A DNA stretch of 28,028 bases, from NCBI RefSeq assembly GCF_003334335.1, contig NZ_QOWQ01000050.1; one strand, given 5' to 3'. This DNA comes from Escherichia coli (lineage in GTDB: Bacteria > Pseudomonadota > Gammaproteobacteria > Enterobacterales > Enterobacteriaceae). Shown here piece after piece: positions 7,502 to 10,319 of this stretch (position 1 is its first letter; each line of letters starts with the position of its first letter). The notes under the pieces are model-generated. The model was not told the DNA's origin. It worked only from the letters and a program-made list of their open reading frames with translations, and searched no databases. The position numbers and the translations under genes were made by a program.

Positions 7502-8212
7502 ATGAAAAAATATTATCCACTATTAACTGTAATTCTTCTTGGTTTACCTTTGTGCTCTCAGGCATTAACTCTTAATCTACGTGGGGGATACAGAAGCGCC
7601 AGTCAGGCTTATGAAACGTTGATTCAGGTTAGTCAGGGGTGGAATAATGGTTGGTGGGCAAGTTTTGAGTCAAACACCTGGAATACAATTCACAACAATG
7701 AAAATGAATTGTTTGCACTCAATTATAATAAAATAGATATAAATAAAACATATAAAATAGATGACAAATGGGCTCTAATCCCAGGGATTCAGACACAATG
7801 GATGTCAGCAGGAAGTCAGTATAACCCTTATCTGAAAATTTCGTATCAGGCAACGCCAGATCTTAATCTGGCCTTACGCTATCGCTATGACTGGAAAGCT
7901 TTCCGACAGACGGATTTAGATGGCAACAGGGCGCGTAATGATCAGCATCAGTTTGATGGTTATGTGACATACAAAATTAATGATTCATGGTTGTTTGCAT
8001 GGCAGACCACGGTATATACGAAGGTTAATAATTTCAAATATGGGAATCATAAAAAAACAGCAACTGAAAATGCATTTGTTCTGCAATATAAAATGTCACC
8101 GGTGTTCACCCCATATATAGAATATGATTACCTGGATAAACAAGGGGTGTATAAGGGGAAAGATAATAAACATGAAAATAGTTACCGTGTCGGTGTTCTG
8201 ATTAATTTTTAA
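7502..8212 (+). CDS. nanC: KdgM-family outer-membrane channel, NanC-like (N-acetylneuraminate porin)
   Basis: ORF in frame from 7472; likely start MKKYYPLL at 7502 with a signal peptide. Strong colinear match to E. coli NanC as recalled: RGGYRS.S.AYET...VS.GW.NGWWAS.ESNTWNTIH, RYRYDWKA.RQ.DL, DGYVTY.IN, FAWQTT.Y.K, ANHKK.ATENAFVLQY.M.P..TPYIEYDYLD.QGVY.G.DN..ENSYR.GV. Confidence 0.8.
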   Translation: MKKYYPLLTVILLGLPLCSQALTLNLRGGYRSASQAYETLIQVSQGWNNGWWASFESNTWNTIHNNENELFALNYNKIDINKTYKIDDKWALIPGIQTQWMSAGSQYNPYLKISYQATPDLNLALRYRYDWKAFRQTDLDGNRARNDQHQFDGYVTYKINDSWLFAWQTTVYTKVNNFKYGNHKKTATENAFVLQYKMSPVFTPYIEYDYLDKQGVYKGKDNKHENSYRVGVLINF

Positions 8213-8224
8213 AAGGTGATTACA

Positions 8225-9334
8225 ATGAAAGTGAAAAACTTTATATATCTTCCCTTCTGCTTGTTTATTGGAACGTCGGTAGCCGGAGCTTTACCGGAAA
8301 TTCCTGAACCATTTAAATATGGTGTAGGAGGGATCGAGAATGGTAAAATATATATAGGACTGGGAAGTCTGGGAAATAACTGGTATATGATAGATACAAA
8401 CCAGAGTGAAAAAAAATGGACTAAGATAGCACAATGGCCGACAGTTCCCAGAGAGCAGGCAACAGCTACTATTATTGATGGTAAGATCTATGTATTTGGA
8501 GGAATTGGAAAAGATAAAAGTGGAGTCATAACCTTACAAAAAGATGTCTATTCCTATGATATTGCTAAAGATAAATGGGAAAAATTGATGACCCGTCCCC
8601 CTGTATCTCTTGCCGGTCATGTTTCTTTTATCCATAATGGTCATGCGGTATCTACTGGTGGTGTAAATGAGAATATTTTTAATGGATACTTTTCAGATGT
8701 CGAGTTATCAAAAGGGAATTCCGCGCTGACAGAGAAAGTCAACAGGGATTATTTTAGTAAACCTGCTGATGATTATTTTTTAAATAATCATATAATTTCT
8801 TATGACCCGTCAAAAAACCAGTGGAAGAACCTGGGAACGACTCCATTTCCGGGAACTGCTGGTTCATCGGTGATTTTTGCAGAACAGCAAATTTATATAC
8901 TGGGAGGGGAGAGAAAACCGGGGCTTCGTTCTGTTAGATCCTGGACGGGGGAGCTTTCGCATGATCGAATTAAATGGTCTGAACTTCCACCAGTAGCTTC
9001 ACCCGAGGGGGTGTCAGGAGCATATGCCTCTGTTATTGATGGAAATATCTTTCTGGCCGGTGGTGCATATTTCCCGGGGGCGGCAGAAAAGTATAGCAAT
9101 GGTGAATACTGGTCTCATAAAGGACTGGATAAAGCCTATTCAAAAGAGATATATCAGCTAATAAAAAATGACTGGAAAAAAGTTGGTTCTTTGCCGGAAG
9201 GACTTGCTTATGGTGTAAGCCTGCCCTGGCAGGGGGGGATGCTCATTCTGGGTGGGGAGAAAAAAGATGGTAAAGCTGTTTCAGATGTTATTTATCTGAA
9301 AAAAAATGACAAACAAATAAAGATTGTTAAATAA
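8225..9334 (+). CDS. nanM: N-acetylneuraminate mutarotase/epimerase, NanM-like (Kelch-repeat beta-propeller)
   Basis: ORF open from a GTG at 8216; ATG at 8225 follows an aaaagg RBS. Signal peptide, then motifs matching E. coli NanM (YjhT) as recalled: IYIGLGS.G..WY..DT......KW, YVFGGIGK, NENIFNGYF, PGLR, YGVSLPW......I.GGE...GKAV.D. Confidence 0.85.
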   Translation: MKVKNFIYLPFCLFIGTSVAGALPEIPEPFKYGVGGIENGKIYIGLGSLGNNWYMIDTNQSEKKWTKIAQWPTVPREQATATIIDGKIYVFGGIGKDKSGVITLQKDVYSYDIAKDKWEKLMTRPPVSLAGHVSFIHNGHAVSTGGVNENIFNGYFSDVELSKGNSALTEKVNRDYFSKPADDYFLNNHIISYDPSKNQWKNLGTTPFPGTAGSSVIFAEQQIYILGGERKPGLRSVRSWTGELSHDRIKWSELPPVASPEGVSGAYASVIDGNIFLAGGAYFPGAAEKYSNGEYWSHKGLDKAYSKEIYQLIKNDWKKVGSLPEGLAYGVSLPWQGGMLILGGEKKDGKAVSDVIYLKKNDKQIKIVK

Positions 9335-9342
9335 CTGTAATG

Positions 9343-9380
9343 CAGGTGACTGTATTAGTTGTTCAGTCACCTGAGTTATT
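9343..9380 (+). terminator. Rho-independent terminator-like hairpin after the nanM-like gene
   Basis: Perfect 10-bp inverted repeat caggtgactg (9343-9352) / cagtcacctg (9364-9373) with 11-nt loop, followed by a T-rich tract (agttatttta). Confidence 0.55.
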
Positions 9381-9395
9381 TTAATGGGGTTTATA

Positions 9396-10319
9396 ATGAA
9401 TAAAGATAAATCTTTAAATGAAATGATGTTAAGCTTGTTTAATAAATCAACTATTGTTGACTTGTCAAGTGAGACAATATCTGAGAGTAAATCTCTTTCA
9501 GGCCGTATTTATCAGGATCCTGAACATAACGGGGAATTTGAACTTGATCGTGTATTGACAGATATTTATGCTCCTCAGTTAATTATTTTTTTACCAGATA
9601 AACCAAATGGAACAGGAATATTGATTATTCCCGGGGGGGGCTACCAGGCTGTTATGTTAGATAAGGAAGGTACAGCTCTTGCTCCAGAGTTTTTATCTCA
9701 GGGCTATACATTATTTGTTCTTAGTTACAGATTACCATCGCCAGCTGAGGAAGAAAATATAAACAAAACTTTTATTGATGCAATATCTGCAATGCTTTAT
9801 ATTCGTAAGAATGCTGATAAATGGCATCTACAGCGTCATCGTATTGGTGTATTAGGATTTTCTGCTGGGGGGCATATCGCCTCAACGTTTGTGAATCAGA
9901 TTTGTGATTTCAAACGTTCTTCTGACAGTAAAGAACAAGAGATTTTCGCTATTCCCGATTTTGTCGGGTTAATTTATCCTGTAATATCAATGAAAGATGA
10001 TGTGACACATCCAGGCTCCAGGAAGCAATTACTGGGGGATAATAGTACCTCAGAAAATATAATACAATATAGTGCGGATCTTAATGTCACATCATGTTTT
10101 CCTCCTGTGTTTTTACTCCATTGTTGTGATGATGATCTTGTGTCAATTGAAAACAGTCTGCTCATGTACCGTGGCCTAATAGAGAAAGGCGTTTCTGCTG
10201 AAATGCATCTCTATGAGAAAGGAGGGCATGGTTTTAGTATTCAGTGGGCCACAGATCTTCCTGTTGGAGGATGGATAAAACTGTTTATGGACTGGATGTA
10301 TTCTCATGGATTTAAATAA
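9396..10319 (+). CDS. alpha/beta-hydrolase fold esterase, paralogue of est1 (est2)
   Basis: ORF in frame from 9384; ATG at 9396 has GGGG 5 nt upstream. Shares with est1 the motifs IIPGGGY, VLSYRLPS (est1 ILSYRMPS), GFSAGGH, PPVFLLHCCDDDLV (est1 PPVFIVHATDDKDV), KGGHGF. No signal peptide. Confidence 0.7.
   Translation: MNKDKSLNEMMLSLFNKSTIVDLSSETISESKSLSGRIYQDPEHNGEFELDRVLTDIYAPQLIIFLPDKPNGTGILIIPGGGYQAVMLDKEGTALAPEFLSQGYTLFVLSYRLPSPAEEENINKTFIDAISAMLYIRKNADKWHLQRHRIGVLGFSAGGHIASTFVNQICDFKRSSDSKEQEIFAIPDFVGLIYPVISMKDDVTHPGSRKQLLGDNSTSENIIQYSADLNVTSCFPPVFLLHCCDDDLVSIENSLLMYRGLIEKGVSAEMHLYEKGGHGFSIQWATDLPVGGWIKLFMDWMYSHGFK

What the first reader, a model, noticed from the sequence alone, without database searches (positions are those of the whole stretch)
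7502..10319. An alpha/beta-hydrolase sits where NanS sits in the canonical nanC-nanM-nanS operon
The canonical order is porin, mutarotase, SGNH esterase. Here the order is nanC-like, nanM-like, then est2 (alpha/beta-hydrolase), with a terminator-like hairpin (9343-9380) between nanM and est2. The true NanS homologue is encoded separately, divergent from the regulator. This looks like non-orthologous gene displacement with retention of the original function elsewhere in the island.
Basis: partly seen in the sequence, partly recalled or inferred. Interest (0 to 1): 0.55.

Follow-up and report, generated by a model that had tools for sequence, protein, structure and literature searches.

The report
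Extra esterase in nan-9 sialic-acid island
The porin, mutarotase and alpha/beta-hydrolase genes are real, but they are the middle of the already published "nan-9" accessory sialic-acid island of pathogenic E. coli, where this esterase is an old extra member rather than a replacement for NanS.

Summary
A NanC-like porin (7502-8212), a NanM-like mutarotase (8225-9334), a stable hairpin (9343-9373 plus U-rich tail) and an alpha/beta-hydrolase, est2 (9396-10319), lie in that order. A true SGNH NanS homologue (11189-12175) is divergent from a NanR-like regulator.

The locus is the published nan-9 cluster (Tiwari et al. 2023). It is at least 99% identical in about 690 of 5426 complete E. coli genomes. 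That paper already proposed the two "axeA1-like" hydrolases as NanS analogues.

"Displacement" is not the best description, for five reasons:
- NanS is retained.
- A second paralogous hydrolase, est1 (6626-7456), lies inside the operon.
- est2 has the same composition and divergence pattern as its neighbours in four diverged versions of the cluster: E. coli chromosome, Proteus faecis and two plasmid lineages.
- In the plasmid versions the cluster is cyclically permuted. est2 stays with nanR-nanS, is not next to nanM, and has its own NanR-type box.
- Other genera have nanC-nanM with no esterase at all.

Most likely est1 and est2 are added acetyl-esterases. In the chromosomal form est2 is probably expressed by read-through of a leaky terminator. 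The finding is known, so interest is low to moderate.

The parts
3175..3190 (+). CRP-like site TTTGATAATCTTCACA upstream of nanA-like gene
   Evidence: 9/10 match to TGTGA-N6-TCACA. It is the only such match in 2800-12400. An equivalent site lies 37-38 nt before the operator-like box in Proteus and in both plasmid lineages.
3228..3246 (+). NanR-type operator-like box TGGTGTACTAGGTATCCCA (two GGTRTA repeats, near-palindrome)
   Evidence: Conserved upstream of nanA in all four lineages. It is the only strong match in the window (PWM 32 bits, next best 14.7 outside the cluster). It resembles the (GGTATA)3 NanR operator of K-12 described in the abstract of PMC8012715 (listed).
3275..4192 (+). nanA-like N-acetylneuraminate lyase
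   Evidence: NCBIfam NF003164, 449.5 bits against a cut-off of 281. RefSeq annotation.
4226..5101 (+). nanK-like N-acetylmannosamine kinase
   Evidence: NCBIfam NF003461, 420 bits against a cut-off of 283. Absent from the Proteus version.
5150..6622 (+). nanT-like sialate:H+ symporter
   Evidence: NCBIfam NF003024, 829 bits against a cut-off of 604. It is 89-92% identical among all lineages, the most conserved gene of the cluster.
6626..7456 (+). est1, alpha/beta-hydrolase (PaeX/BD-FAE-like), paralogue of est2
   Evidence: 36% identical to est2. PaeX-like but below cut-off. Present between nanT and nanC in all four lineages, with catalytic motifs invariant.
7502..8212 (+). nanC-like KdgM-family porin
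   Evidence: 61% identical to K-12 NanC. N-terminal signal-peptide-like sequence by inspection.
8225..9334 (+). nanM-like sialate mutarotase
   Evidence: 44% identical to K-12 NanM. NCBIfam NF010730 above cut-off. Signal-peptide-like N-terminus by inspection.
9343..9383 (+). Hairpin (10-bp perfect stem, 11-nt loop) plus U-rich tail: probable leaky intrinsic terminator of the nanA-nanM operon
   Evidence: dG -20 kcal/mol, z -2.9. Proteus has a canonical terminator at the same junction. K-12 has a strong hairpin between nanM and nanS.
9396..10319 (+). est2, alpha/beta-hydrolase (PaeX/BD-FAE-like) serine esterase
   Evidence: Pfam BD-FAE 2e-20. PDB esterase 6a6o at 1.6e-35. PGGGY, GFSAGGH, DD and GGHGF motifs are invariant in 8 sequences. 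No signal peptide by inspection. PGAP start is 9384; orthologues support 9396.
10340..10367 (+). Terminator-like hairpin at the convergent est2/nanR junction
   Evidence: Listed by the consensus terminator scan. Fold dG -15.4 kcal/mol, z -1.6. Weak.
10355..11089 (-). nanR-like GntR/FadR-family regulator
   Evidence: NCBIfam NanR subfamily, 273 bits against a cut-off of 260.
11189..12175 (+). nanS-like SGNH/SASA sialate O-acetylesterase
   Evidence: 56% identical to K-12 NanS over 316 residues, with the GQSN block conserved. Pfam SASA.

Best explanation
The region is the centre of the nan-9 accessory sialic-acid island of extraintestinal pathogenic E. coli. It is a low-GC block (about 0.40) sitting between IS66 copies and the aerobactin operon.

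**Operon (inferred from sequence).** The NanC-like porin and NanM-like mutarotase are the last genes of a six-gene operon, nanA-nanK-nanT-est1-nanC-nanM. Intergenic gaps are 3-59 nt by the ORF and annotation coordinates. The operon is driven from a CRP-type site and a NanR-type GGTRTA box upstream of nanA. The hairpin after nanM marks the operon end and acts as a leaky terminator.

**Second block.** est2 belongs to a separate block: est2 on the plus strand, nanR on the minus strand, nanS on the plus strand.

**est2 (fold and history shown; substrate inferred).** est2 is a serine esterase of the PaeX/BD-FAE branch of alpha/beta-hydrolases. It has no evident signal peptide. It has been part of this cluster since before the E. 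coli, Proteus and plasmid versions diverged.

**Role (inferred).** Together with est1, est2 is an addition to NanS, not a replacement. The three esterases probably remove O-acetyl groups at different positions, or from multiply O-acetylated sialic acids, so that Neu5Ac can enter the NanA pathway.

**Expression (inferred).** In the chromosomal form the 61-nt gap holds no NanR-type box and no recognisable promoter. est2 is therefore probably transcribed by read-through from the nanA promoter. In the permuted plasmid form it carries its own NanR-type box.
For: **Identity with nan-9**
- 100% DNA identity to RefSeq E. coli chromosomes with the same nine annotated genes.
- Prevalence of 689/5426 genomes (about 13%), matching the published 12%.
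- IS66-family element upstream, and 44-61% identity to core Nan proteins, as published.

**est2 is integral and old**
- Its GC3 is 0.27, against 0.26-0.34 for its neighbours and about 0.6 for the iuc genes.
- Orthologues at 53-58% identity lie in the same cluster in Proteus faecis, in two plasmid lineages and in Citrobacter farmeri.
- Homologues at 47% identity or less are not nan-linked.
- Catalytic motifs are invariant in all 8 est1/est2 sequences.

**Two-block architecture**
- The plasmid order is est2, nanR(-), nanS, nanA, nanK, nanT, est1, nanC, nanM.
- The two plasmid lineages are sisters.

**Regulation**
- The CRP-like site and NanR-type box have conserved spacing in all lineages.
- There is only one such box in the window and in Proteus. 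The plasmids have a second one directly upstream of est2.
- No plus-strand promoter-like site lies between 8756 and 9774.

**Terminator**
-.

**Function**
- The delta-nan-9 strain shows delayed or reduced growth on Neu5Ac and Neu5Gc (PMC10088187).
Against: - No transcript data exist for the 9334-9396 junction.
- Proteus has a canonical terminator before est2 and no detectable promoter. Read-through is therefore an assumption, not an observation.
- The plasmid est2 promoter I read by eye scores only 8/12 and was not picked up by the scan.
- No esterase activity or substrate has been measured for est1 or est2. Their best curated matches are pectin and xylan acetyl-esterases.
- The published knockout phenotype was obtained on non-acetylated sialic acids, so it does not implicate the esterases.
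- Absence of a signal peptide was judged by eye only.
- The PWM used for the box scan included the plasmid est2 sites, so that part is partly circular.
Confidence: 0.6

Rival explanations
1. First reader's model. An ancestral nanC-nanM-nanS operon had its third gene displaced by a non-orthologous alpha/beta-hydrolase, and nanS was relocated next to the regulator.
For: - Positional equivalence is real, with a similar roughly 60-nt hairpin-containing spacer in K-12.
- est2 has no own NanR-type box when it follows nanM, but has one when separated from it. This is consistent with est2 having been an operon member.
Against: - NanS is retained on the same strand 1.85 kb downstream, so nothing was displaced.
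- est2 segregates with nanR-nanS in the permuted plasmid clusters.
- est1 is a second hydrolase inside the operon.
- nanC-nanM occurs without any esterase in Klebsiella, Rouxiella, Providencia and Aeromonas, so C-M-S is not shown to be ancestral.
- Here nanC is not a first gene and has no operator of its own.
Confidence: 0.12
2. est2 is a separate transcription unit. The hairpin is an efficient terminator, and est2 is expressed from its own weak or constitutive promoter, uncoupled from the nanA operon. It might provide basal esterase activity that generates the inducer Neu5Ac.
For: - The hairpin has a U-rich tail.
- Proteus has a canonical terminator at the same junction followed by about 90 nt of AT-rich DNA.
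- In the plasmids est2 is necessarily transcribed on its own.
- nanR and nanS also lack the box.
Against: - There is no promoter-like site in or near the 61-nt gap.
- Only 10 nt separate the end of the stem (9373) from the PGAP start at 9384, and 22 nt separate it from the orthologue-supported start at 9396.
- Where est2 stands alone, it does carry a NanR-type box.
Confidence: 0.25
3. est1 and est2 do not act on sialic acids. They are generic carbohydrate acetyl-esterases of the pectin or xylan oligosaccharide type. They were carried along with the KdgM-family porin from an oligosaccharide-uptake module.
For: - Best curated matches are PaeX and AxeA1.
- The nearest non-cluster relatives are esterases from Flavobacterium, Stenotrophomonas and Luteimonas.
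- The porin belongs to the KdgM family.
Against: - Scores are far below the PaeX and AxeA1 cut-offs (260 and 157 bits against 550 and 700).
- The porin is 61-85% NanC-like.
- Both hydrolases are retained, with intact catalytic motifs, only inside nan clusters in four lineages. Relatives at 47% identity or less lie elsewhere.
- The plasmid est2 has a NanR-type box.
Confidence: 0.15
4. The palindrome at 9343-9373 is not a terminator. It is either a protein-binding site or an mRNA-stabilising or processing element, like the GC-rich hairpin in the K-12 nanM-nanS spacer.
For: - K-12 nanCMS is described as an operon in PMC3658417, yet it has a -22.9 kcal/mol hairpin without a good U-tract at this position.
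- The plasmid L004 has a perfect palindrome directly before est2 that doubles as a NanR-type box.
Against: - The window palindrome does not match the NanR-type box.
- It is followed by 5 U in 8 nt.
- Proteus has an unmistakable terminator here.
Confidence: 0.12

Closest known systems
nan-9 'human-associated nan gene cluster' of E. coli (Tiwari et al., BMC Biol 2023, PMC10088187)
   Same: It is the same locus. It has nine contiguous genes, nanAKT, nanCM and nanRS plus two axeA1-like acetyl-esterase genes. It is flanked by an IS66-family element, is common in ST131, ST73 and ST69, and occurs in about 12% of genomes. The authors already suggested the two hydrolases are analogous to NanS.
   Different: Nothing in the locus differs. 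The paper does not describe transcription units, the hairpin, the CRP-like site and NanR-type box, the Proteus homologue or the permuted plasmid versions.
E. coli K-12 nanCMS operon (NanR-regulated; Vimr 2013, PMC3658417)
   Same: The porin and mutarotase genes are adjacent in the same order. A roughly 60-nt spacer with a stable hairpin is followed by an esterase gene. A NanS orthologue (56% identical) is present nearby.
   Different: - The gene after nanM is an alpha/beta-hydrolase, not an SGNH enzyme.
- nanC is an internal gene here, following est1, with no NanR box in front of it.
- NanS is a separate unit divergent from a dedicated regulator.
PaeX / BD-FAE (PF20434) carbohydrate acetyl- and feruloyl-esterases
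   Same: Alpha/beta-hydrolase fold family. The G-x-S-x-G nucleophile elbow (GFSAGG) and the PGGGY oxyanion motif are shared. Sequence matches span the full length.
   Different: Scores are well below the equivalog cut-offs for PaeX and AxeA1. The genomic context is sialic-acid catabolism, not pectin or xylan. The substrate is untested.
SGNH-type sialate O-acetylesterases (NanS, prophage NanS-p, Bacteroides EstA, P. vulgatus SAE)
   Same: The presumed reaction is the same: de-O-acetylation of sialic acids ahead of NanA. They are co-located with nan genes.
   Different: The fold is unrelated and there is no sequence similarity. The characterised gut sialate esterases tabulated in the 2023 review PMC10017367 are NanS, EstA, P. 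vulgatus SAE and the B. bifidum sialidase fusion. The review describes an SGNH fold or motif for NanS and the P. vulgatus enzyme and names no BD-FAE/Abhydrolase_3-type sialate esterase.
nan-9-like clusters in Proteus faecis and on IncF plasmids of E. coli and Citrobacter farmeri
   Same: They have the same gene set, including both hydrolases. They share the same CRP-like site and NanR-type box before nanA.
   Different: Protein identity to the window is 46-90%. Proteus lacks nanK. The plasmid clusters are cyclically permuted, with est2 first and a NanR-type box directly upstream of est2.

Membership tests
nan-9 cluster (Tiwari 2023) | Nine contiguous genes: nanA, nanK, nanT, nanC, nanM, nanR and nanS homologues plus two axeA1-like acetyl-esterase genes | tested here: met
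   ORFs and family scans. RefSeq annotation of a 100% identical locus.
nan-9 cluster (Tiwari 2023) | Chromosomal, about 12% of E. coli genomes, enriched in ExPEC lineages, IS66-family element upstream | tested here: met
   689/5426 complete genomes. All full-length copies are on chromosomes, including ST131 and ABU 83972. IS66 tnpA, tnpB and tnpC lie at 198-2613.
Canonical nanCMS operon | NanC porin and NanM mutarotase genes adjacent, in that order | tested here: met
   61% and 44% identity to the K-12 proteins, with a 12-nt gap between the genes.
Canonical nanCMS operon | Third gene is the SGNH esterase NanS | tested here: not met
   The third gene is an alpha/beta-hydrolase with no similarity to NanS. 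The NanS homologue lies beyond nanR.
Canonical nanCMS operon | NanR operator and promoter immediately upstream of nanC | tested here: not met
   nanC follows est1 after 45 nt. The only NanR-type box in the window is upstream of nanA.
Canonical nanCMS operon | Co-transcription of the three genes | not testable with these tools
   Needs RNA data. The sequence shows a terminator-like hairpin and no promoter in the gap.
NanS / SASA (SGNH) sialate O-acetylesterases: est2 as a member | SASA/SGNH domain with the GQSN catalytic block | tested here: not met
   est2 has no SASA hit in Pfam and no significant alignment to NanS.
Alpha/beta-hydrolase carbohydrate esterases (BD-FAE PF20434 / Abhydrolase_3) | Profile match over the catalytic domain | tested here: met
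   BD-FAE 2e-20 over residues 68-263, and Abhydrolase_3 6e-10. PDB esterases at 1.6e-35 and 9.7e-27.
Alpha/beta-hydrolase carbohydrate esterases (BD-FAE PF20434 / Abhydrolase_3) | Ser nucleophile in G-x-S-x-G, oxyanion-hole glycine motif, and acid and His residues conserved | tested here: met
   GFSAGGH, PGGGY, DD and GGHGF are invariant in 8 est1/est2 sequences at 33-57% identity. Triad geometry was not modelled.
PaeX pectin acetylesterase (NCBIfam NF041902 equivalog) | Score above the curated cut-off (550 bits) | tested here: not met
   est2 scores 259.9 bits and est1 167.7 bits.
Sialate O-acetylesterase (by function) | Hydrolysis of O-acetyl esters of sialic acids | not testable with these tools
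   Inferred only, from exclusive linkage to nan genes in four lineages and a NanR-type box before the plasmid est2.

The most novel reading that the evidence does not exclude
est1 and est2 define a new class of sialate O-acetylesterases with a BD-FAE/PaeX-like alpha/beta-hydrolase fold. All characterised gut enzymes tabulated in the 2023 review are of the NanS/EstA type. The two enzymes would have positional specificities complementary to NanS, for example 7-, 8- or 4-O-acetyl groups or oligo-O-acetylated forms. A three-esterase island would then let ExPEC lineages use the heavily O-acetylated sialic acids of human colonic mucin, which could explain the published association of nan-9 with the human host. 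The cluster would be a mobile two-block module of Morganellaceae-like origin, rewired on plasmids so that est2 carries its own NanR operator.
Probability: 0.4. Interest if true: 0.55.

Novelty: already known. Interest (0 to 1): 0.27.

Why it matters
[quoted passage not shown] It is carried by the main ExPEC clones (ST131, ST73, ST69).

If its two alpha/beta-hydrolases are sialate esterases with new specificities, they would explain how these clones use O-acetylated mucin sialic acids. They would also add a second fold to this enzyme function.

The comparative details found here give concrete handles for experiments: the two-block architecture, the permuted plasmid versions, the Proteus homologue and the conserved CRP-like site and NanR-type box.

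Tried and rejected
- **Exact K-12 NanR boxes.** A search for GGTATA gave chance-level counts and none in intergenic DNA. The relevant box is a diverged GGTGTA-N3-GGTATC pair, found only by comparing lineages.
- **Genome-contig scan with a NanM alignment.** This was meant to survey what follows nanM across species. It returned only 6 loci because the peptide patterns were too strict. I replaced it with four individual context look-ups, which is a small sample.
- **Text search for presumed CFT073 locus tags (c3630-c3636).** It returned only unrelated papers. My guess at the tags was unverified.
- **Kalivoda 2013 (PMC3807447).** Not held in the library.
- **Hairpin covariation within E. coli.** Impossible, because all 690 copies are at least 99% identical.
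- **est2 promoters read by eye in the plasmids.** The candidates (-35 TTGGCT or TTTGTA, 17 nt, -10 TATTTT) fall below the consensus scan threshold, so I do not rely on them.
- **est1 and est2 as a recent tandem duplication.** Rejected. est2 is closer to non-nan esterases (43-48%) than to est1 (36%), and est1 is equidistant from both.
- **est2 as a decaying passenger gene.** Rejected. It is annotated as an alpha/beta-hydrolase CDS in the genomes sampled, and its catalytic motifs are invariant across lineages.
- **Structure prediction.** Not run, because the fold was not in doubt.

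
Full report
**1. What is in the sequence**

The window carries, on the plus strand unless noted:
- a nanA-like lyase (3275-4192)
- a nanK-like kinase (4226-5101)
- a nanT-like symporter (5150-6622)
- an alpha/beta-hydrolase, est1 (6626-7456)
- a KdgM/NanC-like porin (7502-8212)
- a nanM-like mutarotase (8225-9334)
- a second alpha/beta-hydrolase, est2 (9384/9396-10319)
- a NanR-like regulator on the minus strand (10355-11089)
- an SGNH/SASA NanS-like esterase (11189-12175)

IS66 genes lie to the left. A ShiF-like MFS gene, iucABCD-iutA and an Iha-like TonB-dependent receptor lie to the right.

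Identities to K-12 are 61% for the porin against NanC, 44% for the mutarotase against NanM, and 56% for the SGNH protein against NanS. est2 has no similarity to NanS.

The hairpin is a perfect 10-bp stem (9343-9352 with 9364-9373) with an 11-nt loop, followed by AGUUAUUUUAAU. Its dG is -20 kcal/mol and z is -2.9. It is a 36%-identical paralogue of est2 that sits inside the operon, directly before the porin gene.

**2. It is a known locus**

The 9.6-kb block is 100% identical to chromosomal loci in many RefSeq E. coli genomes. It occurs nearly full-length in 689 of 5426 complete genomes. Annotation of one such genome lists the same nine genes.

Tiwari et al. 2023 (PMC10088187) named this the "nan-9" cluster. 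Their main points were:
- It is present in 12% of RefSeq genomes.
- It is enriched in ST131, ST73 and ST69, with an IS upstream.
- Its seven nan genes are 45-64% similar to the core genes.
- Deleting nan-9 delayed growth on Neu5Ac and impaired growth on Neu5Gc. nan-9 alone could not replace nanRATEK, which the authors attributed probably to the lack of nanE.

The paper says nothing about transcription units, the hairpin, regulatory sites or homologues outside E. coli chromosomes. A text search found no later paper on nan-9. A further search found none characterising these hydrolases.

**3. est2 is an old, integral member of the cluster**

The whole cluster has a GC content of 0.38-0.42, against about 0.52 in the flanks. 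The GC3 of est2 is 0.27. Its neighbours have 0.26-0.34 and the iuc genes about 0.6.

Close homologues of est2 are rare. Every one at or above 53% identity lies in a nan-9-like cluster:
- Proteus faecis and an identical metagenome contig (58%)
- two plasmid lineages in E. coli (54% and 53%)
- the second plasmid type in Citrobacter farmeri

The next homologues, at 47% or less, sit in unrelated contexts.

Across the four lineages every gene shows the same pattern of relatedness. The two plasmid lineages are sisters. The window, Proteus and the plasmid clade are about equidistant. est1 and est2 are among the least conserved genes and nanT the most conserved, at about 90%.

The catalytic motifs PGGGY, GFSAGGH, DD and GGHGF are invariant in all eight est1 and est2 sequences. 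est1 and est2 are deep paralogues, not a recent duplication. In Proteus the cluster GC (0.335) falls within the range of its flanks (0.31 and 0.41). In E. coli and on the plasmids it stands out from the flanks. This suggests a low-GC, Morganellaceae-like source. That origin is an inference.

**4. Architecture: two blocks, not a modified nanCMS operon**

In the E. coli chromosome and in Proteus the order is nanA, (nanK), nanT, est1, nanC, nanM, then est2, nanR(-), nanS. On the plasmids the order is est2, nanR(-), nanS, then nanA, nanK, nanT, est1, nanC, nanM. This is a cyclic permutation in which est2 is the first gene, lying between finO (or a toxin-antitoxin pair) and nanR.

So est2, nanR and nanS behave as one block and nanA through nanM as another.

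Upstream of nanA, all four lineages share two elements with conserved 37-38-nt spacing:
- a CRP-like site (window 3175-3190, 9/10 match to consensus)
- a near-palindromic box, TGGTGTACTAGGTATMCC(A) (window 3228-3246)

The box consists of two GGTRTA repeats. It therefore resembles the (GGTATA)3 operator of K-12 NanR described in the abstract of PMC8012715 (listed).

A weight-matrix scan finds only this one box in the window and in Proteus. The plasmids have a second one immediately upstream of est2. The matrix included those plasmid sites, so this part is partly circular. The site in L004 is nevertheless 18/23 identical to the Proteus nanA box.

**5. The nanM-est2 junction**

The gap is 61 nt if est2 starts at 9396. 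Orthologue alignment and a GGGG Shine-Dalgarno motif favour that start over the PGAP start at 9384.

The gap contains the hairpin and no promoter-like site. There is none on the plus strand between 8756 and 9774. The scan's overall hit rate is at chance level.

Proteus has a textbook terminator at the same junction, with 0.0 expected by chance.

The K-12 nanM-nanS spacer (64 nt) also contains a strong hairpin (-22.9 kcal/mol, z -2.95) without a good U-tract. Yet nanCMS is described as a NanR-controlled operon (PMC3658417). A hairpin at this position therefore does not by itself exclude co-transcription.

My reading is that the window hairpin is the leaky end of the nanA-nanM operon, and that est2 is expressed by read-through. 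The alternative, an independent weak promoter, cannot be excluded without RNA data.

**6. Is nanC-nanM-nanS really the reference order?**

Within Escherichia it is (locus L014). Elsewhere nanC-nanM, or nanM-nanC, is followed by unrelated genes or by other nan genes, with neither an SGNH nor an alpha/beta esterase. I saw this in Klebsiella oxytoca, Rouxiella silvae, Providencia rettgeri and Aeromonas sobria.

NanS homologues were found in Escherichia (core nanS and DUF1737-type long forms, which I take to be the prophage NanS-p type), Salmonella, the nan-9-like clusters of E. coli and Proteus, and Citrobacter.

This has two consequences:
- There is no evidence that a C-M-S operon was the ancestor from which nanS was displaced.

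The layout C-M-[est2, nanR]-S reads equally well as a two-gene insertion, or as independent recruitment of an esterase downstream of nanCM in two lineages.

**7. Mechanism**

Shown:
- est1 and est2 are BD-FAE/Abhydrolase_3-type serine hydrolases with intact catalytic motifs.
- They are linked to nan genes in every lineage found.
- Neither is an orthologue of PaeX or AxeA1.

Inferred:
- They de-O-acetylate sialic acids, complementing NanS.
- The characterised gut sialate esterases tabulated in a 2023 review are NanS, EstA, P. vulgatus SAE and the B. bifidum sialidase fusion. The review describes an SGNH fold or motif for two of them and names no BD-FAE-type enzyme (PMC10017367). An alpha/beta-fold enzyme of this type would be new for this reaction. 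It is untested.
- None of est1, est2 or NanS-9 has an obvious signal peptide by inspection, whereas the porin and mutarotase do. Where NanS acts relative to the NanT transporter is not settled by what I read, so I do not lean on localisation.

**8. Verdict**

"Non-orthologous displacement" is not supported, and [quoted passage not shown] fits better.

The locus and the esterase-analogue idea are already published, so novelty is low. The comparative details found here are modest additions: the permuted plasmid clusters, the Proteus homologue, the conserved CRP-like site and NanR-type box, and the K-12 hairpin parallel.

Noticed in passing
L004 10001-19020; L010 10001-19058; L022 3177-12197; L023 1266-10323: Diverged nan-9-like clusters (46-90% protein identity to the window) sit on plasmid-type backbones. 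L004-L006 and L022 are IncF plasmids of E. coli, between finO and repA. L010 has Rep3, ParAB and toxin-antitoxin genes. L023 is a Citrobacter farmeri contig with a ParE/RelB pair next to the cluster. Their order is cyclically permuted: est2, nanR(-), nanS, nanA, nanK, nanT, est1, nanC, nanM. This is not mentioned in the nan-9 paper.
   Followed up: partly
L016 4854-13001 (Proteus faecis TJ1636); identical in metagenome contig L003: A chromosomal Proteus cluster has the same order as the window but lacks nanK. Its GC (0.335) falls within the range of its flanks, which suggests a Morganellaceae-like origin for nan-9.
   Followed up: partly
window 3175-3190 and 3228-3246: A CRP-like site and a two-repeat GGTRTA box lie upstream of the nanA-like gene. 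Sequence and spacing are conserved in all four cluster lineages. This is probably the promoter and operator of the island's main operon.
   Followed up: yes
L002 4596-4659 (K-12 nanM-nanS spacer, minus strand): The canonical K-12 nanCMS operon has a GC-rich 9-bp hairpin (dG -22.9 kcal/mol, z -2.95) between nanM and nanS, without a clear U-tract. Its role (attenuator, stabiliser or REP-like element) was not examined.
   Followed up: no
window 5150-6622 compared with the rest of the cluster: Conservation is very uneven among the four lineages: NanT about 90%, NanC 78-87%, NanR 72-85%, but NanM, NanK, est2 and est1 only 46-77%. The reason for the strong constraint on the transporter and the fast change in the esterases is unexplained.
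   Followed up: no
L012 (JAEYCB010000044.1, 'MAG: Bacillota bacterium'): A 21.5-kb contig binned as Bacillota carries the whole nan-9 cluster at 99.6-100% protein identity. It is almost certainly a mis-binned E. coli contig.
   Followed up: no
window 9384 vs 9396: RefSeq/PGAP starts est2 at 9384 (MGFIMNK...). Orthologue alignment and a GGGG motif 6 nt upstream favour 9396 (MNKDK...).
   Followed up: yes
window 198-2613 and 2819-3200: IS66-family tnpC, tnpB and tnpA genes and a degraded transposase fragment abut the nanA promoter region. In the window the CRP-like half-site reads TTTGA, as in Proteus, against CGTGA on the plasmids.
   Followed up: no
window 21700-25000: A low-GC stretch (0.35-0.48) lies between iutA and the Iha-like TonB-dependent receptor (25074-27164, NF010012, 1618 bits). 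Its two ORFs (22345-22743 and 23295-23675) have no NCBIfam match.
   Followed up: no
window 11090-11188 and the equivalent spacers in L003, L004 and L010: The nanR-nanS divergent spacer has no NanR-type box in any lineage. The regulator and NanS may therefore not be under the same control as the nanA operon.
   Followed up: partly
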